Assembly (NCBI GenBank): GCA_963829245.1
Contig: CAWHIM010000042.1
Location: 2,703-66,702 of the forward strand
From: an uncultured bacterium
Lineage (GTDB): Bacteria; Desulfobacterota; Deferrimicrobia; Deferrimicrobiales; Deferrimicrobiaceae
Direction of reading: 5' to 3'
Length of the DNA stretch: 64,000 nt
A model generated the notes under the pieces. The model saw nothing but the letters and a program-made list of their open reading frames with translations. It did no database searches and was not told where the DNA came from. A program made the position numbers and the translations under genes. Below are positions 5,635 through 64,000 of the stretch, one piece after another. Each line of letters starts with the position of its first letter. Positions within the stretch are counted from its first letter, which is position 1.

Positions 5635-5919
5635 TCAACCCTTCATCGCCTGCCGTGCGATCCGCTCCTTGATGAACGCCGAGAAAGCGGCCTCGTCGGG
5701 GAAGCGGATGGCACCTTCCGGGCACAGTTTTCCGCAGGTGCTGCACTCCACGACGCAGTTGTAAGGGTTTTTCACCCGGGACTTCCCGGCGGCTTCATCG
5801 AGCTCCAGGACGTCGTTCTTGCAGAAATCGACGCAGGTCCGGCACCCCGTGCACTGGTCCGGGTCGATCGTCGGGTACCATGGGATCTCCTCTCTCGGGA
5901 TCCCGCGCCAGGTCTTCAT
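5635..5919 (-). CDS. 2x[4Fe-4S] ferredoxin
   Basis: Two CxxCxxC..CP motifs (CTGCRTCVDFC, CVVECSTCGKLCP); 94 aa. Confidence 0.75.
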   Translation of the reverse strand: MKTWRGIPREEIPWYPTIDPDQCTGCRTCVDFCKNDVLELDEAAGKSRVKNPYNCVVECSTCGKLCPEGAIRFPDEAAFSAFIKERIARQAMKG

Positions 5920-5931
5920 GGCTGCCTCCGG

Positions 5932-6291
5932 TCAGGCGGCATTGGCGACCATCCCCTTGATCGCCTCGACGGCCTCTTCCGTGGTCTTGTTCCGGATGTC
6001 GAGAGGCACCATCCGGGACTTGTCGAACCCCGCGGCATCGAGCGCATCCCGGAACATCTTCTCCTGCATCCGCGGGTCGCACGCGGCGATGTACAGCCTG
6101 TCCGTATCCTTCCCCGCCAGCAGGACCTTGAGGAATTCCTCGCCGTCCCCGACGCAGAGCTGCGGGTGCAGGCACACGTAATCGAAGATCTTCTCCCTGC
6201 GGATATCGGAGAGCACATTCATGATGTCCATCTTCTTGAAGCTCGGGCAGGTCCCCTGGCAGTTGCAAAGAATGAATCCCTTCTTTCCCAT
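5932..6291 (-). CDS. small Cys-rich putative iron-sulfur protein (MvhD/FlpD-like?)
   Basis: 119 aa with FILCNCQGTCP and later Cys motifs loosely resembling the hydrogenase delta-subunit family; assignment tentative. Confidence 0.4.
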   Translation of the reverse strand: MGKKGFILCNCQGTCPSFKKMDIMNVLSDIRREKIFDYVCLHPQLCVGDGEEFLKVLLAGKDTDRLYIAACDPRMQEKMFRDALDAAGFDKSRMVPLDIRNKTTEEAVEAIKGMVANAA

Positions 6292-6463
6292 GGCGAACTC
6301 CTTTCTGCCCCATCAAACGTTATATCTGCATCCGTAGATATGATGCACGGGAAAGCGGAAAAGATCAACAATAATGCGACACGGAGTAATAGCGATGAGG
6401 CCCGAGGTAAGACGGAGGATTAGCGGGAATAAGTGTCTGAAAGGATTGGAGGAATATCGTCCG

Positions 6464-50644: not shown

Positions 50645-52038
50645 ATGAGCCGCCTCCCCGGAGACGACGCGAAGGGCGGAGACGCCCATCCCGTCCTGCG
50701 GTACGATGGACGCCGATTGGCGCATGCCCGCCATCTCCCCGTGCGGGAGGTCCCCGTCGCCCTCGCGGTAAACGGCGTTGCCCTCGTGACGCTGATCGCC
50801 TCGCCCCACGACCTGCATTTCCTGGTGGCCGGTTTTCTCCGGATGCAGGGGTTGGTCCAATCCGCCGGCGACCTCCTTACTTTGAGCGTGTGCGACGATT
50901 TCGGATCGGCCTCGGTGCGGATCCGGGGGGAAGTGCCGGACCGCATCACGCCGACCTTCACCTCGGGGTGCGGCGCCGGGATCAGCTTCCACGTTCCCGC
51001 ATCCGGGGGGCGCCAGGTCCAGCTCCCCTCCACGGGGCCGTTCCTTTCCCCGGAATCGCTTTTTTCCGCGATGGACGCGCTGGCGCGGGCGTCCGAGGCG
51101 TACCGCGGGAGCGGAGGAATCCACTCCGCCGGCGCATGGGACGGCGAGCGCCTCCTCCTTTTTTCCGAGGATATCGGGCGGCACAACACGATCGACCGGA
51201 TCGCGGGGCAGGCGCTCCTGGGAGGGATCGACCTCTCGGGCAGGATCCTCGTCGCCTCGGGGCGCATTTCTTCCGAGATGGCGGCGAAGGCGGGTTCCCT
51301 CGGGATCTCCGTGATCGCTTCCCGCACCTCTCCCACCGACCTCGCCGTCAGGATCTGCGGGGAGCTGGGGATCACCCTCGTCGGGTACGTGCGAGGCCGC
51401 AGGTTCAACGTCTACACCCATCCGACGCGGATCGCCGCCGCGGTCGAGGAGAGGATCCCCGGGGTCACTGGGGTAATCCTCGCGGGGGGGGGCTCCGGCC
51501 GGATGGGAAGCGACAAGGCGCTCCTGCCGTACCATGGCGGGCGGTTCATCGAGGCGATCCACCGATGCATGGAGGAGCTGTTCGACGAGGTGATCGTCGC
51601 CACCGGGGAAACGTCCCGGTACGATTTCCTCCCGTGCCGCCGGGTGACGGACCTCTACCCCGGGATGGGCGCGTTGGGGGGATCCACGCGGCGTTGCGGG
51701 CGAGCGCTTCGGAGAAGGTCTTCGTCGTGGCGTGCGACATGCCGCACTTCTCGCCGGATCTCATCCGGCACCTGTGCTCCCTGGCGGAGGAGGTGGACGT
51801 GGTGGTTCCCGAGGGGGAAGGGGGGCTGGAGCCGCTACACGCCGTGTACCGGAAGCGCGTCCTTCCCGCCGTGGAAGATGCGCTGCGGGACGGGCAGTGC
51901 CGCGTGGTCTCCTTCTTCGACCGGGTGCGGATCCGCCGCGTTCCACTCGCGGAGGTGGAGCGGTTCGACCCCGACCGGTGCGCCTTCCGGAACATCAACA
52001 CCCCAGAGGAGTATTTCCGCTTTCGCGACGGGGAGTAA
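50645..52038 (+). CDS. FdhD sulfurtransferase fused to MobA molybdenum-cofactor guanylyltransferase (frameshift near 51680)
   Basis: FdhD core with catalytic Cys region ..FTSGCGAGISF.. continues without a stop into MobA (..GVILAGGGSGRMGSDKALL.., ..VVACDMPHF..). Confidence 0.7.
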
Positions 52039-52055
52039 CCGACAGGGAGGGAATA

Positions 52056-52342
52056 TGGAAGGACCGAAGAAGCCGATGGAGATCCAGGTAACGTTCCCGG
52101 ACCACCTCAAGGGCGGCGCCTACTCCAACAACATGACCGTGACCCACACCCGCGAGGAGTTCGTACTGGATTTCCTGATGGTCGCGCCCCCCGCAGGCTC
52201 CGTCACCGCGAGGGTCATCCTCTCTCCCGGCCACGCCAAACGGGTCCTCGCGGCGCTTTCGGAAAATATCAGGAAATACGAGGAGGCGAACGGAACGATA
52301 TTGACGGCCGAGGAGCCGCAGGGGAATATCGGCTACAATTGA
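52056..52342 (+). CDS. DUF3467-like small protein
   Basis: 95 aa; GGGAGGG RBS; ..YSNNMTVTHTREEFVLDFLMVAPP.. Confidence 0.5.
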
Positions 52343-60221: not shown

Positions 60222-62237
60222 CTAGGCCCGCAGCACCACCCGGGCGTCCGCGATCGACAGCCCCCGGGCGTGGACGATGACCGGGTTGAGGTCCATCTCC
60301 TCGATCTCCGGGTGCGACGCGAGGAACGCCGAGAGTCGCAGCAGGAGGACCCGCAGGGCGTCGAGGTCCCCGGCGGGCTTCCCGCGCAGCCCCGTGAGCG
60401 CCCTGTATCCCCGGATCTCCCGGATCATCCCACGGCGTCCTTCTCCGAGAGCGGCGTAACGCGGAACGAGACGTCCTTCATCACCTCGACGAAGATCCCC
60501 CCGAGACCGAACATCACGGCGTGGCCGAACTGCGGATCCTTCGTCACGCCGACGATCACCTCGTGCCCGGCGGGCGCCATCGCGCAGACGAGCGCGCCTC
60601 CGGCCCGCGCGCCGAGCCGCCGCTTCGGCCTGCCCGGATCGCCCGGAACGCCGCGCGGACGCCGGCGTCGTCGGCCACGTTCAGGAAGACGCCCCCGGCG
60701 TCGCTCTTGTGCGTGACGTCGGGAGAGTTCATCTTCACCGCGACGGGGAAGCCGATCCCGCGCGCCGCGGCGACCGCCTCGTCCTCGGTCCCGGCGCGCC
60801 GGAAGCGGGTCAACGGGAACCCGGCGCGAGCGAGGAACTCCATCGAGTCGGCGGGAGTCATCCCCTTCCCCGGCGTCGCCTCCCCGTGCCCCGCCCCTTC
60901 CATCGGAGAGCGGGAAGAGGTCGCGGTGGAACCGGACGTGGCAGGAGAGGGCTTTCACGGCCCGCTCCGGCGTGGGGAAGACGGCGATCTTCTTCTCGTG
61001 GAACAGCAGCCGTTCCGCGCGCTCCACGTCGGCGCCGCCGAGGTAGGCACACCAGCTCGCACCGCCCGGGGCGGATCACTTCGGAGGCCCCGGGGATCGG
61101 GTCGCCGAAGATCGTCATCACCACGTCGAACTCCCCCTCGGCCGCGTCGAGCACGTTCCGGTAGCGGGCGGCGTCGGTGTCCCCGGTGAGATCGAGGGGG
61201 TTGCCGACGATGCAGTGGGAGGGGAGGATCTCCCGGAGCTTCCCGGAGAGTCCGGTGGAAAGCGGGGTGACGCGCAGCCCTTCCTCCTCGGCCACGTCGG
61301 TGGCGATGATCGCGGACCCGCCGGAGCTCGTGACGATCAGCATCCGCGGACCCTTGGGAGGCGGGACGTAGGCGAGGGCCTTCGCGAAGTCGTACAATTC
61401 CTCGAGCGTGGCGGCGCGATGCACGCCGTTCTGGCGGAACACGGCGTCGTAGATCTCGTCGCGCCCCGCGAGCGACCGGGTGTGCGACTCCGCCGCCTTG
61501 CGTCCCCGCTCGGTCCGCCCGGCCTTGAAGATCACGACCGGCTTCGGGCAGGCGCGGACGGCGGAGAGGAACTTCGGGGCGTCCTTCACCCCTTCGATGT
61601 AGAGGGCGATCACCTTCGTGTGCGGGTCCTCCGCGAAGAAACCGATCAGGTCCGCCTCGTCGACGTCCGAACGGTTCCCCATGCTGACGAAGGCGGAGAA
61701 CCCGAGCCGCTCCTCCGACGCCCAGTCGATCAGCGCGGCGCCGACGGTGCCGCTTTGCGAGACGATCGCGATCTCCCCCCGCCGGGTGATCAGGGGCCAC
61801 GAGGCGCACACGCCGTGGTACGGGTAGTTCACGCCCTGGCAGTTGGGCCCGACCACGCGGATGCCCGCCGCCTTCGCCGCCTCCGCCATCTCCGCCTGGA
61901 GCGCCGCACCCGGCGCGCCGGACTCGGCGAACCCCCCCGTGATCACGATCGCCGATTTCACCTTCCGTCCCCCCAGCTCCCGCATCGTCCCGGGGACGAG
62001 CTTCGCCGGGATGATCACGACCGCGAGGTCGGTCCCCTCGGGGAGTTCGGCGGCGGATTTTATGGAGGGGACGCCCAGGATCACCTCCCCCTTCGGGTTC
62101 ACGGGGACGATCTCGCCGGCGTAGCCGGCCTCCTTGATGTTGCGGAAGATCTGGAACCCCATCTTGTCGGGGTTCGAGGATGCGCCGATCACGGCGATCC
62201 GGGAGGGACGAAACAGGGGAGACAGGGGAGAGGTCAT
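60222..62237 (-). CDS. acetyl-CoA synthetase (ADP-forming), fused alpha/beta; several frameshifts
   Basis: N-terminal CoA-binding/succinyl-CoA-synthetase-like domains (..[14 protein letters not shown].., ..GPNCQG..) and a C-terminal ATP-grasp part fragmented over 4 ORFs. Confidence 0.75.
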
Positions 62238-62278: not shown

Positions 62279-63472
62279 TCAGTAGACGAGGCGGGCTCGG
62301 ACCGTGTGGGGGATTTTCCGGAGTTCCTCAACGATCCCGAGGCCGCATCCCTGCGCCACGTCGATCAGCGCATACCCCAGGGAGCCGCGCGTCTCAAGCT
62401 GCTGCCCTACGATGTTGATGCCATACCGCGCGAAGAGGTCGTTGATCTTCGCCAGCATCCCGGGGAGGTTCTCATGGACGTGTGCGAACCGGTGGCGCTG
62501 GGGAGTCGAGGAGGGAGAAAGGTCCGGAAAGTTCACGCTCGTCGACGTGCTCCCCTTGGACAGGTAGTCGAGAATGCGCGTCGCCACGAATCCTCCGATC
62601 CCCTGCTGCGCCTCCTCGGTCGAGCCGCCGATGTGGGGGGTCAGGATCACGTTCGGGAGCCCCTGCAGCGGCGAGGTGAAGGGGTCCTTGTTGGCCCTGG
62701 GCTCCACCGGGAACACGTCCACCGCCGCGCCTCGGACCTTCCCGCCCCGCACGTTCCGCGCGAGCGCTTCAACGTCCACCACGAAACCGCGGCTCAGGTT
62801 GAGGAAGATCACCCCGTCCTTCATCGCCGCGAATTCCCGCTCCCCGACGAGGCCCCGGTTCTCTTCCCGCCCGTCGACGTGGACAGTGACGATGTCCGAG
62901 ACCTGCAGAAGTTCCTCCAGGGAGCACTTCCGGGCGTTCCCCAGCGAAAGCTTCTCCACGATGTCGTGGTAGTTCACCTCCATCCCCATCGCTTCCGCGA
63001 GGATGGAGAGTTGGGAGCCGATGCTCCCGTACCCGATGATCCCGAGCTTCTTCCCGCGGATCTCGTGGAACCCCTCCGAGGACTTCCCCCAGATCCCCCG
63101 GTGGAGGTTCGTGCTGCGGTCGAACACGCCGCGCAGGAGCAGGATCATCTCGCCCATGGCAAGTTCGACCACGCTGCGGGTGTTGCTGTACGGGGCGTTG
63201 AAGACCGCCACCCCGCGCCGGCTGCACGCCTCGAGGTCGACATGTTCGGTCCCGATGCAGAACGCGCCGATGGCCAGAAGATCCGGGGCGCGCTCCAGAA
63301 GGTCGGCGGTCACGCGGGTTTTCGAGCGGATGCCGAGAACGGAGATGTCCCCGATCTCTTGGGCGAGCACCTTCCGGGGAGGGCTGTGCGGCACCCGCTC
63401 CACGGCATGCCCGGCCGCCGCGAAGGCCGCCCCCGCGTCGGGGTGAATGTTCTCCAGCAACAGGGTCTTCAT
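62279..63472 (-). CDS. serA: D-3-phosphoglycerate dehydrogenase
   Basis: 2-hydroxyacid DH catalytic and NAD-binding domains (GIIGYGSIGS), C-terminal ACT domain. Confidence 0.85.
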   Translation of the reverse strand: MKTLLLENIHPDAGAAFAAAGHAVERVPHSPPRKVLAQEIGDISVLGIRSKTRVTADLLERAPDLLAIGAFCIGTEHVDLEACSRRGVAVFNAPYSNTRSVVELAMGEMILLLRGVFDRSTNLHRGIWGKSSEGFHEIRGKKLGIIGYGSIGSQLSILAEAMGMEVNYHDIVEKLSLGNARKCSLEELLQVSDIVTVHVDGREENRGLVGEREFAAMKDGVIFLNLSRGFVVDVEALARNVRGGKVRGAAVDVFPVEPRANKDPFTSPLQGLPNVILTPHIGGSTEEAQQGIGGFVATRILDYLSKGSTSTSVNFPDLSPSSTPQRHRFAHVHENLPGMLAKINDLFARYGINIVGQQLETRGSLGYALIDVAQGCGLGIVEELRKIPHTVRARLVY

Positions 63473-63494: not shown

Positions 63495-64000
63495 TCAGGA
63501 TCGGCAGACAGGGCAGGATGGGGATCCCTCTTCTTCCGCCCGGCGGCGGTCCTCAGCGTCCTGGTACTGCGGAGTGTCGTGGCGGGGCGTCCGGTCGTCC
63601 CCTTCCGCGAAGGCCTTCGCTTTCCATTCCTCGTCCCCCGACCAGCGGAACGGAAGCTCCTTCATGGAGCCGGGAGCCGTCATCGTCTCCAAGGACGAGA
63701 GCGCTTCGACGAGGATCCGGCGCTGCAGATCGGGCTCGTGCGGTTTGCCGGTCGTGTGCCCGAGGGGGAAGTCGAGGAACGCCGCCCGGGGAGGATTGAC
63801 CGCCCGCGTGATGTCCCGCGCGCTGGTCATGCAGAGCGTCGGGATTCCGGCGGCCTCCGAGTGCCTTGCGACCAGTCCCACGGACTGGTGGCAGACGGGT
63901 CAAACCGGAACGAACAGCACAACGTCGACACCGTCCTCGAGGAACCGGGCGGTCAGACGCGGGGCCAGATCCTCGGCAACGCGGCGGGAGGAGTAGATCC
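63495..64000 (-). CDS. GrdB/PrdB (selenoprotein B) family protein, 5'-truncated at window edge, with in-frame UGA in a U-P-V-C motif
   Basis: Upstream frame continues ..GVDVVLFVPV[TGA]PVCHQSVGLVARHSEAAGIPTLCMTSARDITRAVNPPRAAFLDFPLGHTTGKP.., the AAGIPT...FPLG(N/H)P pattern of the selenoprotein B family. TGA at 63900-63902 (minus). A 7-bp stem hairpin CCAGUCC-GUG-GGACUGG lies 11 nt downstream. Confidence 0.5.

What the first reader, a model, noticed from the sequence alone, without database searches (positions are those of the whole stretch)
63495..64000. Edge-truncated GrdB/PrdB-family gene with U-x-x-C in-frame UGA and a strong downstream hairpin
The frame upstream of the tracked ORF continues through a TGA at 63900-63902 (minus strand) without loss of homology: ..VLFVPV-U-PVCHQSVGLVARHSEAAGIPT..FLDFPLGHTTGKP.. 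matches the selenoprotein B family pattern of glycine/betaine/D-proline reductases. U-x-x-C is a classic redox selenoprotein motif. Eleven nt after the UGA the mRNA can form a perfect 7-bp stem, CCAGUCC-GUG-GGACUGG. The gene lies next to serA. Its partner subunits would be upstream, beyond the window.
Basis: partly seen in the sequence, partly recalled or inferred. Interest (0 to 1): 0.65.

Follow-up and report, generated by a model that had tools for sequence, protein, structure and literature searches.

The report
Stand-alone PrdB-like selenoprotein gene with SECIS
The window ends inside a real selenocysteine-encoding gene: its in-frame UGA and the hairpin after it are conserved across many bacterial phyla, and the protein is a relative of proline reductase subunit PrdB that occurs without the usual partner genes, so it belongs to a catalogued but biochemically uncharacterised selenoprotein family.

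Summary
The minus-strand frame 63998→63495 reads …VLFVPV-UGA-PVCHQSVGLV…CPVCRS-stop, and a hairpin begins 11 nt after the UGA.

- **UGA conservation.** 78 of 80 related genome loci from at least seven phyla keep the TGA. Two have TGC.
- **Sec position.** Full-length database homologues carry Cys, or rarely Thr, at this position. It aligns exactly with the annotated Sec of bona fide PrdB from Terrisporobacter and Peptoclostridium (U-x-x-C-H).
- **Hairpin.** It meets all four published bSECIS criteria. It shows compensatory changes (C-G↔U-A, G-C↔A-U) and frozen synonymous sites in the stem only. Its specific pairing is lost in Cys and Thr variants.

The protein is about 34% identical to PrdB over PrdB's whole length but falls below the PrdB and GrdB family cut-offs. 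It lacks the GrdB UxxCxxC motif and has extra N- and C-terminal extensions, usually ending in CxxC.

No prdA- or grd-like partner lies within ±6–8 kb in any of 80 loci. In close relatives the upstream gene is pntB, a universal stress protein (Usp) or a transporter.

This is a new member, from a Deferrimicrobiaceae-like bacterium, of the environmental "PrdB" selenoprotein family known since 2005. Its function is unknown, probably a selenol/thiol oxidoreductase. Interest is low to moderate.

The parts
63495..64000 (-). 3' part (167 codons plus stop) of a PrdB-like selenoprotein gene, cut by the window edge. In relatives the full gene is about 295-302 codons.
   Evidence: Translation. It is 95% identical to the full-length gene of L002 (alignment A4). 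Full-length relatives are shown.
63900..63902 (-). In-frame UGA read as selenocysteine. It is residue 33 of the window fragment and about residue 161 of the full protein.
   Evidence: TGA in 78 of 80 genome loci and TGC in 2. Cys in full-length homologues. Aligned with the annotated Sec of real PrdB.
63891..63893 (-). Cys codon (TGC) of the U-P-V-C motif, the presumed resolving cysteine. It is followed by an invariant His.
   Evidence: C164 and H165 are invariant in alignment A4, which includes real PrdB. C172, H173 and Q174 are invariant among 60 full-length homologues.
63868..63892 (-). bSECIS hairpin in the mRNA. Outer pairs are 63892/63868 and 63891/63869. The main 8-bp stem is 63889-63882 with 63878-63871. 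The apical loop GUG is 63881-63879.
   Evidence: RNAalifold consensus. Pair counts and covariation. Single-sequence folds. Synonymous-site entropy. Published bSECIS criteria (PMC13188914).
63504..63515 (-). C-terminal CxxC (C-P-V-C), three codons before the stop. It lies in a roughly 50-residue C-terminal extension that real PrdB lacks.
   Evidence: Read from the sequence. A CxxC is present near the C-terminus in most Sec-containing relatives but absent in the Entotheonella clade and in the Cys forms. The extension relative to PrdB is visible in alignment A4.

Best explanation
The window ends inside a selenoprotein gene of a Deferrimicrobiaceae-like bacterium.

Shown:
- The UGA at 63902-63900 lies at the family's Sec/Cys position.
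- A conserved mRNA hairpin follows it (63892-63868; loop G-U-N, 18 nt between UGA and loop).

Inferred from established bacterial Sec decoding: SelB·GTP·Sec-tRNA(Sec) binds this hairpin and delivers Sec to the ribosome paused at the UGA. The result is one polypeptide of about 296 residues instead of the two ORFs (160-167 aa and 128 aa) that gene callers report.

Shown: the protein is a stand-alone paralogue of the selenoprotein B subunits. It is collinear with PrdB at about 34% identity and shares the U-x-x-C-H, FMGG, PR and P-x-G-x-x-x-G-x-P motifs.

Shown for the AlphaFold model of a Cys homologue: the Sec-equivalent residue sits directly after a beta-strand, at the N-terminus of a helix.

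Inferred mechanism: the selenolate is the nucleophile of a selenol/thiol redox cycle. A Se-S bond forms with Cys+3 and is then re-reduced, possibly through the C-terminal CxxC tail by a thioredoxin-type or NAD(P)H-linked donor.

It is not part of a prd or grd operon. Its substrate is unknown and is probably not D-proline or glycine as handled by the clostridial complexes.
For: Sec decoding:
- The in-frame TGA has conserved peptide on both sides.
- 78 of 80 genome loci from Deferrimicrobia, Binatia, Entotheonella, Chloroflexota, Acidobacteriota, Desulfobacterales and Gammaproteobacteria have TGA, and 2 have TGC.
- Full-length homologues carry Cys at that column.
- The position aligns exactly with the Sec of annotated PrdB.

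Hairpin:
- 98.4% of cells are paired.
- Compensatory C-G↔U-A changes occur in 15 sequences. G-C↔A-U changes occur in 5 sequences and are synonymous on both sides (CAG→CAA with CTG→TTG).
- 0 of 500 shuffles reach the observed covariation, and slid controls collapse.
- Third-position entropy is 0.0-0.38 bits in the stem codons, against 1.4-1.9 bits in the loop and flanks.
- Thr variants keep the peptide QSVGL but use codons that break this pairing.
- All four bSECIS criteria of PMC13188914 are met.

Stand-alone status:
- No PrdA hit in the window or in the 86 other loci searched.
- No conserved neighbour family.
- The upstream genes in close relatives are pntAB, Usp or a transporter.

Family placement:
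- TIGR04483 scores 173.9 bits against a 300 cut-off. TIGR01918 scores 63.7 against 65.45. PF07355 scores 49.9 against 22.
- AF2 model pLDDT is 93.2, with strand 162-166 followed by helix 170-185 around Cys169.
Against: - The 5' two-thirds of the gene and everything upstream lie outside the window. The contig could not be extended.
- No selA/selB/selC/selD was found in the window, and there is no tRNA in it at all. The Sec machinery of this organism is therefore assumed, not shown.
- Partner genes could be encoded elsewhere in the genome. Only ±6-8 kb around each relative was examined.
- No member of this subfamily has been studied biochemically, so the redox mechanism and the role of the C-terminal CxxC are inference.
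- The covariation rests on two pairs, and related sequences inflate shuffle statistics.
- Cys and Thr variants can still form other, weaker hairpins of -0.6 to -10.8 kcal/mol.
Confidence: 0.85

Rival explanations
1. It is the genuine selenoprotein B subunit of a D-proline (or glycine/sarcosine/betaine) reductase complex, with PrdA/PrdC or GrdA/E/C/D partners encoded upstream of the window or elsewhere in the genome.
For: About 34% identity to real PrdB over PrdB's whole length, with identical Sec placement and the U-x-x-C-H motif. TIGR04483 is the best NCBIfam hit. JGI labels the N-terminal halves 'D-proline reductase (dithiol) PrdB'.
Against: - Scores are below the equivalog and subfamily cut-offs: 173.9 against 300, 62.9 against 602, 63.7 against 65.45.
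- There is no UxxCxxC.
- No prdA-like sequence lies within ±6-8 kb in 80 loci, whereas prdA-CBO2463-prdB are contiguous in Terrisporobacter.
- The upstream genes in close relatives are pntB, Usp or a transporter.
- The hosts are Binatia, Entotheonella, Acidobacteriota and Pseudomonadales. From general knowledge, these are not Stickland fermenters.
- PrdB lacks the N- and C-terminal extensions seen here.
Confidence: 0.08
2. The TGA is an ordinary stop codon. The locus encodes two separate small proteins: an N-terminal GRDB-domain protein, and a 128-aa protein starting at GTG 63881. This is how every public annotation calls it. The hairpin would then be an attenuator or an incidental feature.
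For: Gene callers produce exactly these two ORFs in hundreds of contigs. A GTG lies 18 nt downstream of the TGA.
Against: - The 18 nt between TGA and GTG encode the invariant PVCHQS in frame.
- Homologues with Cys or Thr at this site are single uninterrupted proteins.
- The TGA coincides with the experimentally established Sec of PrdB (Kabisch et al. 1999, as cited in PMC13188914).
- The GTG is itself the apical loop of the conserved hairpin.
- The hairpin pairing is lost precisely when the TGA is replaced.
Confidence: 0.03
3. The TGA is a sequencing or assembly error, or a pseudogene lesion, in this particular window.
For: The window does carry indels relative to three relatives in the nearby acyl-CoA synthetase gene.
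Against: The same TGA is present in 78 independent genomes and in many metagenome contigs. The PrdB-like plus serA stretch aligns with relatives without indels.
Confidence: 0.01

Closest known systems
D-proline reductase selenoprotein PrdB (NCBIfam TIGR04483; e.g. Terrisporobacter petrolearius WP_083399465.1, Peptoclostridium acidaminophilum WP_148296006.1)
   Same: Collinear over the whole PrdB length at 33-34% identity. Sec is at the same alignment column in a U-x-x-C-H motif. The FMGG, PR and P-x-G-x-x-x-G-x-P motifs are shared. A SECIS hairpin follows the UGA within about 15 nt.
   Different: Scores 173.9 bits against the 300-bit equivalog cut-off. Has about 20 extra N-terminal and about 50 extra C-terminal residues, usually with a terminal CxxC. 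No adjacent prdA proprotein or CBO2463-like gene. Found in non-clostridial, largely non-fermentative phyla.
Glycine/sarcosine/betaine reductase selenoprotein B (GrdB/GrdF/GrdH; Pfam PF07355, TIGR01917/TIGR01918)
   Same: Same superfamily. PF07355 matches the N-terminal half of relatives and stops two positions short of its end, three residues before the Sec. Sec is the first residue of a UxxC motif.
   Different: GrdB proteins are about 430 aa with an extra N-terminal domain and a UxxCxxC motif (PMC13188914), whereas this protein has U-P-V-C-H-Q-S. Scores are about 63 bits against cut-offs of 602, 775 and 800. No grdA/grdE/grdC neighbours.
'Proline reductase PrdB' selenoprotein family of the Sargasso Sea and GOS metagenome surveys (Zhang, Fomenko & Gladyshev 2005, PMC1088965; Zhang & Gladyshev 2008, PMC2398784), and RefSeq 'glycine/sarcosine/betaine reductase selenoprotein B family protein' (e.g. 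Roseomonas WP_207415257.1)
   Same: Same pfam07355 domain and UxxC motif. Abundant in environmental, non-clostridial bacteria, with a minority of Cys homologues. The Roseomonas and Haematobacter Cys proteins are 38-41% identical over 86-89% of the length and share the N- and C-terminal extensions.
   Different: None in kind. This is most likely a new lineage (Deferrimicrobiaceae) of that catalogued family. Those surveys did not analyse gene context, the C-terminal CxxC, or SECIS covariation in the passages read here.
Bacterial SECIS consensus (bSECISearch model; E. coli fdhF/fdnG SECIS)
   Same: A stem-loop immediately 3' of the UGA inside the coding region. The apical loop fits N1-G-[G|U]-N-N2 (C-GUN-G). 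Spacing is 18 nt, the stem 8 bp, MFE -14.4 kcal/mol.
   Different: The sequence is unrelated to the E. coli elements. There is no bulged U, but a 1x1 internal loop below the upper stem. No Rfam family matches.

Membership tests
Bacterial selenoprotein gene (Sec-UGA plus bSECIS) | In-frame UGA with conserved coding sequence on both sides, aligned with Cys in homologues (Sec/Cys pair) | tested here: met
   78 of 80 loci have TGA and 2 have TGC. Full-length database homologues have Cys.
Bacterial selenoprotein gene (Sec-UGA plus bSECIS) | bSECIS model: 3-9 nt apical loop, 4-16 bp upper stem, G in the first two loop positions, 16-37 nt from UGA to loop, MFE <= -7.5 kcal/mol (PMC13188914) | tested here: met
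   Loop GUN (or C-GUN-G), 8-bp stem, 18 nt spacing, -14.4 kcal/mol.
Bacterial selenoprotein gene (Sec-UGA plus bSECIS) | Genome encodes selA, selB, selC (tRNA-Sec) and selD | not testable with these tools
   No tRNA in the window. No sel gene was seen among the window ORFs scanned. Only ±8 kb of relatives is held.
GRDB superfamily (Pfam PF07355) | Score above the Pfam gathering threshold (22 bits) | tested here: met
   The full-length relative L002 (95% identical to the window fragment) scores 49.9 bits over residues 28-158. The window fragment alone has no Pfam hit, because the matched part of the model lies upstream of the Sec and mostly outside the window.
D-proline reductase PrdB (TIGR04483 equivalog) | Score at or above the curated cut-off (300 bits) | tested here: not met
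   173.9 bits for the full-length relative and 70.8 bits for the window fragment.
D-proline reductase PrdB (TIGR04483 equivalog) | Sec in a U-x-x-C motif at the PrdB position | tested here: met
   Alignment A4 with Terrisporobacter and Peptoclostridium PrdB places the TGA codons in the same column.
D-proline reductase PrdB (TIGR04483 equivalog) | Encoded with the pyruvoyl proprotein PrdA (prdA-prdB operon) | tested here: not met
   tblastn with PrdA and the CBO2463-domain protein gives no hit in the window or in the 86 other loci searched. In Terrisporobacter the three genes are contiguous. The region upstream of the window itself is not available.
Glycine/sarcosine/betaine reductase protein B (TIGR01917, NF040794, NF040795, TIGR01918) | Score at or above the curated cut-offs (602, 800, 775 and 65.45 bits) | tested here: not met
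   62.9, 66.1, 62.4 and 63.7 bits.
Glycine/sarcosine/betaine reductase protein B (TIGR01917, NF040794, NF040795, TIGR01918) | UxxCxxC motif (PMC13188914) | tested here: not met
   The sequence is U-P-V-C-H-Q-S. The position of the second Cys is Ser in all Sec forms.
Glycine/sarcosine/betaine reductase protein B (TIGR01917, NF040794, NF040795, TIGR01918) | grdA/grdE/grdC/grdD and thioredoxin-system neighbours | tested here: not met
   No neighbour family is shared by more than 11 of about 80 loci. The largest neighbour families, identified by eye from their sequences and not scanned against Pfam, look like an F420-type oxidoreductase, an ABC-F ATPase, an enoyl-CoA hydratase, a CoA-transferase and similar.

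The most novel reading that the evidence does not exclude
The stand-alone clade (about 296 aa, with an N-terminal extension and a C-terminal W..WK..PRxDTPQYQxEEDR..AE extension usually ending in CxxC) is a functionally distinct selenoenzyme that does not need a pyruvoyl PrdA partner. It would carry out a so far undescribed reductive reaction in non-fermentative bacteria (Deferrimicrobia, Binatia, Entotheonella, Acidobacteriota, Gammaproteobacteria). The C-terminal CxxC would act as an internal electron shuttle. Occasional fusion to an adenylating (AMP-binding) domain hints at a carboxylate or acyl substrate.
Probability: 0.5. Interest if true: 0.55.

Novelty: new member of a known kind. Interest (0 to 1): 0.3.

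Why it matters
For annotation, every public record seen here splits this gene at the UGA into a 160-167-aa and a 128-aa ORF, and the N-terminal halves are often labelled 'D-proline reductase PrdB'. That label wrongly implies Stickland metabolism in soil and groundwater lineages.

For biology, the 'PrdB' family was reported as one of the most abundant selenoprotein families in ocean metagenomes. The clade analysed here has no PrdA partner nearby, so its substrate and electron donor are open questions.

The very strongly conserved SECIS, together with natural Cys and Thr variants, gives a clean system for testing Sec decoding and the advantage of Sec in uncultured phyla.

The finding itself is a correct recognition of a known family, not a new kind of element.

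Tried and rejected
- **Extending the contig.** The exact serA product is not on record. Exact-match scans of metagenome contigs with the last 50 nt and the last 26 nt of the window found nothing.
- **Rfam.** No family matched; only sub-threshold chance hits.
- **Sec machinery or other selenoproteins in the window.** No tRNA was found. A scan for other in-frame TGAs with coding signal on both sides gave three sites. All look like ordinary stops between same-frame genes, e.g. 5932-5934 between an FlpD/MvhD-like ORF and a ferredoxin ORF.
- **serA linkage.** Adjacency holds only in the nearest Deferrimicrobiaceae loci (8 loci). Other clade members have the acyl-CoA synthetase directly downstream instead. 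I rejected it as a functional link.
- **Full-family profile for the genome scan.** The 17-sequence alignment was too diverse to give search patterns, so a 4-sequence alignment was used.
- **Representative search with a Cys-substituted fragment.** The exact 134 residues after the UGA were used instead.

Full report
**1. What is in the sequence**

The minus-strand frame from 63998 to 63495 translates to IYSSRRVAEDLAPRLTARFLEDGVDVVLFVPV*PVCHQSVGLVARHSEAAGIPTLCMTSARDITRAVNPPRAAFLDFPLGHTTGKPHEPDLQRRILVEALSSLETMTAPGSMKELPFRWSGDEEWKAKAFAEGDDRTPRHDTPQYQDAEDRRRAEEEGSPSCPVCRS*. The internal stop is TGA at 63902-63900 and the terminal stop is TGA at 63497-63495. Mechanical ORF listing sees only the 128-aa ORF that starts at GTG 63881.

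Twenty-two bases downstream starts a 397-aa gene with 2-Hacid_dh, 2-Hacid_dh_C and ACT domains, i.e. serA-like (62279-63472).

**2. Is the UGA a sense codon?**

All of the closest database proteins are 111-138-aa ORFs that begin just after the TGA. On their contigs they are preceded, in frame, by a 160-167-aa ORF that hits Pfam PF07355 (GRDB) and ends at the TGA. Reading through gives a protein of 295-302 residues.

A scan of one genome per GTDB species found 354 relatives, and I examined the best 80. They come from Deferrimicrobium/Deferrimicrobiaceae (87-94% identity to the close relative L002 used as query), Binatia, Entotheonella, Chloroflexota, Acidobacteriota/Thermoanaerobaculia, Desulfobacterales and Gammaproteobacteria. 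At the homologous codon, 78 have TGA and 2 (Desulfobacterales) have TGC.

Uninterrupted full-length proteins from the protein databases carry Cys there: …LLVPV-C-PVCHQ…. A few carry Thr, encoded by ACA or ACT.

The plasmid collection contains annotated, bona fide prdB genes. One is in Terrisporobacter petrolearius pTPHSE2, inside a prdA-CBO2463-prdB cluster, and another is in Peptoclostridium acidaminophilum. Their Sec codons (…LLTAG-U-GTCHRS…) fall in the same alignment column as the window's TGA. The following Cys and His are invariant.

**3. The hairpin**

I aligned 69 distinct sequences covering the TGA plus 48 nt. RNAalifold adds two outer pairs (63892/63868 and 63891/63869) across a 1x1 internal loop.

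- 98.4% of pair cells are standard pairs.
- Pair 15/31 switches between U-A (49 sequences) and C-G (15 sequences).
- Pair 18/28 switches between G-C (63 sequences) and A-U (5 sequences), with one G-U intermediate. This change is CAG→CAA (Gln) together with CTG→TTG (Leu), so it is synonymous on both sides.
- No shuffle out of 500 reaches the observed covariation score or number of doubly changed cells.
- Sliding the 3' arm by 1-3 columns drops pairing to 1-47%.

Third-codon-position entropy tells the same story. It is 0.30 bits for Ser TCC, 0.32 for Gly GGA and 0.00 for Leu CTG/TTG in the stem. It is 1.40 for the loop Val and 1.4-1.9 for the flanking Pro, Val, Ala and Arg codons.

The Thr variants are a natural control. 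They keep the peptide QSVGL but use codons (GGC CTC in one, CAA AGC in the other) that destroy this pairing. The Cys forms encode a different peptide here (QATAI) with no equivalent of the hairpin. These variants can still form other, weaker hairpins, so the statement is about this specific structure.

The element satisfies all four criteria of the published bSECIS model (PMC13188914):
- apical loop of 3-9 nt (GUN, or C-GUN-G, which fits the N1-G-[G|U]-N-N2 pattern);
- upper stem of 4-16 bp (8 bp);
- 16-37 nt from UGA to loop (18 nt);
- MFE ≤ -7.5 kcal/mol (-14.4).

On its own the window's 51-nt segment is not exceptional against shuffles (z = -1.57). The evidence lies in the comparative data. 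Rfam has no matching family.

**4. What the protein is**

On the 167-residue window fragment, NCBIfam gives TIGR04483 (PrdB) at E = 1.1e-19 and weaker GrdB/F/H hits. Pfam gives nothing. On the full-length relative L002 (95% identical to the window fragment):

| Model | Score (bits) | Cut-off (bits) | Note |
|---|---|---|---|
| TIGR04483 (PrdB) | 173.9 | 300 | covers profile positions 7-235 of 238 |
| TIGR01918 | 63.7 | 65.45 | |
| TIGR01917 (GrdB) | 62.9 | 602 | |
| PF07355 (GRDB) | 49.9 | 22 | match ends at model position 345 of 347, three residues before the Sec |

Identity to real PrdB is 33-34% over its whole length. The shared motifs are FMGG, U-x-x-C-H, PR and P-x-G-x-x-x-G-x-P.

The differences are these:
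- an N-terminal extension of about 20 residues;
- a C-terminal extension of about 50 residues (W..WK…PRxDTPQYQxEEDRxxAE);
- in most Sec forms, a CxxC close to the C-terminus (CPVCRS* in the window, 63515-63504). It is absent from the Entotheonella clade and from the Cys forms;
- no second Cys of GrdB's UxxCxxC motif, since the sequence is U-P-V-C-H-Q-S.

RefSeq names the alphaproteobacterial Cys homologues (38-41% identical, same extensions) 'glycine/sarcosine/betaine reductase selenoprotein B family protein'.

An AlphaFold2 model of the Cys homologue P0126, built with 60 full-length homologues, is confident (pLDDT 93.2, pTM 0.92). It places the Sec-equivalent Cys169 between strand 162-166 and helix 170-185. 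No solved structure resembles it by sequence or by Foldseek.

**5. Gene context**

The window cannot be extended, so I used relatives. The upstream gene differs between relatives:

| Loci | Identity to L002 | Upstream gene |
|---|---|---|
| L008, L009, L010, L013 | 87-93% | pntA(4TM)-pntB transhydrogenase, ending about 60 nt before the start, same strand |
| L001 | not in that scan | universal stress protein (Usp) |
| L002 | query | divergent Na/sulfate symporter |

Across about 80 loci (±6 kb), clustering of all neighbouring ORFs finds no family shared by more than 11 loci, and none resembles PrdA, GrdA or GrdE. A tblastn with Terrisporobacter PrdA and its small CBO2463-domain partner gives no hit in the window or in the 86 other loci searched. 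The PrdB control hits all of them.

The serA adjacency is confined to the nearest Deferrimicrobiaceae loci (8 loci). Other members of that clade have the ADP-forming acyl-CoA synthetase directly downstream instead. So this is a stand-alone gene with lineage-specific neighbours.

**6. Mechanism**

Shown:
- a conserved Sec/Cys position;
- a conserved, covarying hairpin at the canonical distance;
- homology to PrdB that includes the catalytic U-x-x-C-H motif;
- absence of linked partners.

Inferred from established knowledge of bacterial Sec decoding: SelB·GTP·Sec-tRNA(Sec) binds the hairpin and inserts Sec at the UGA, giving one protein of about 296 residues.

Inferred from the motif and its position at a helix N-terminus: the selenolate acts as nucleophile and Cys+3 resolves it to a selenenylsulfide. 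Re-reduction is speculated to run through the C-terminal CxxC and a thioredoxin-like or NAD(P)H-linked donor.

In real D-proline reductase the substrate is held by PrdA's pyruvoyl group (Kabisch et al. 1999, as summarised in PMC13188914). Without PrdA, the substrate of this clade is unknown.

**7. Comparison with what is known, and novelty**

'Proline reductase PrdB' (pfam07355, UxxC) was listed among the most abundant selenoprotein families in the Sargasso Sea (42 genes; PMC1088965) and in GOS (235 genes against 110 Cys homologues; PMC2398784). Reviews still list GrdB and PrdB as UxxC selenoproteins (PMC9312934, PMC13188914).

The window gene is therefore a new member, from a Deferrimicrobiaceae-like lineage, of a catalogued family. 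It is not a new kind of element. I found no paper in the library that treats the stand-alone clade separately.

The gaps that remain are partner independence, the C-terminal CxxC, the Thr variants and the AMP-binding fusions. Everything seen about them here is circumstantial.

**8. Verdict**

- Observation: confirmed.
- Interpretation: partly supported. The selenoprotein call, the family, the Sec position and the SECIS are right. The 'reductase subunit with partners upstream' expectation is not supported.
- Confidence in the stand-alone PrdB-like selenoprotein reading: 0.85.
- Interest: about 0.3.

Noticed in passing
window 60222-62237 (-): The ADP-forming acyl-CoA synthetase gene (CoA_binding, Succ_CoA_lig, ATP-grasp_5) is split over three reading frames. 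Against three relatives that have one intact 670-aa gene, the window has +1 nt near 61049, +1 near 60903, +2 near 60628-60629 and -1 near 60430. This is either a pseudogene or assembly indels. The adjacent PrdB-like and serA stretch has no indels.
   Followed up: partly
L090 6001-7044 (P0271); L091 3001-3870 (P0273): These family members have Thr (ACA or ACT) in place of Sec, giving a T-x-x-C motif. They keep the peptide QSVGL, but its codons no longer form the SECIS hairpin.
   Followed up: partly
proteins P0175 (805 aa) and P0187 (403 aa): The PrdB-like domain (Cys form) is fused to an N-terminal AMP-binding, acyl-CoA-ligase-like domain. In L090 a CoA-binding/succinyl-CoA-ligase-type gene lies directly upstream on the same strand. 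This may hint at a carboxylate or acyl substrate.
   Followed up: no
window 63504-63515 (-), and the C-termini of L007-L086: Most Sec forms have a CxxC within the last 10-20 residues or so (CPVCRS, C[PE]VC, CP[TG]CVFL). The Entotheonella clade and the Cys forms L071 and L072 lack it. Real PrdB has no such tail.
   Followed up: partly
L008, L009, L010, L013, about 0.5-2.2 kb upstream of the TGA: pntA (4TM part) and pntB, encoding NAD(P) transhydrogenase, lie directly upstream on the same strand in four Deferrimicrobiaceae-clade relatives. This is the most likely content just beyond the window's end.
   Followed up: partly
public records of this gene: The gene is split at the UGA in essentially all records seen. 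The N-terminal halves are often named 'D-proline reductase (dithiol) PrdB' and the C-terminal halves 'hypothetical protein'. The match to Pfam PF07355 stops two model positions from the end, three residues before the Sec, which may reflect a model built from Sec-truncated sequences.
   Followed up: no
window 5638-6312 (-), TGA at 5932-5934: An FlpD/MvhD-like ORF (MGKKGFILCNCQGTC…) and a 2x[4Fe-4S] ferredoxin-like ORF lie in the same frame, separated by one TGA. It looks like an ordinary stop between two genes rather than a Sec codon.
   Followed up: partly
window 50645-52339 (+): A single ORF combines FdhD/NarQ, a MobA-like NTP-transferase domain and DUF3467. This could be a fusion of formate dehydrogenase and molybdenum-cofactor accessory functions, or merged neighbouring genes.
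   Followed up: no
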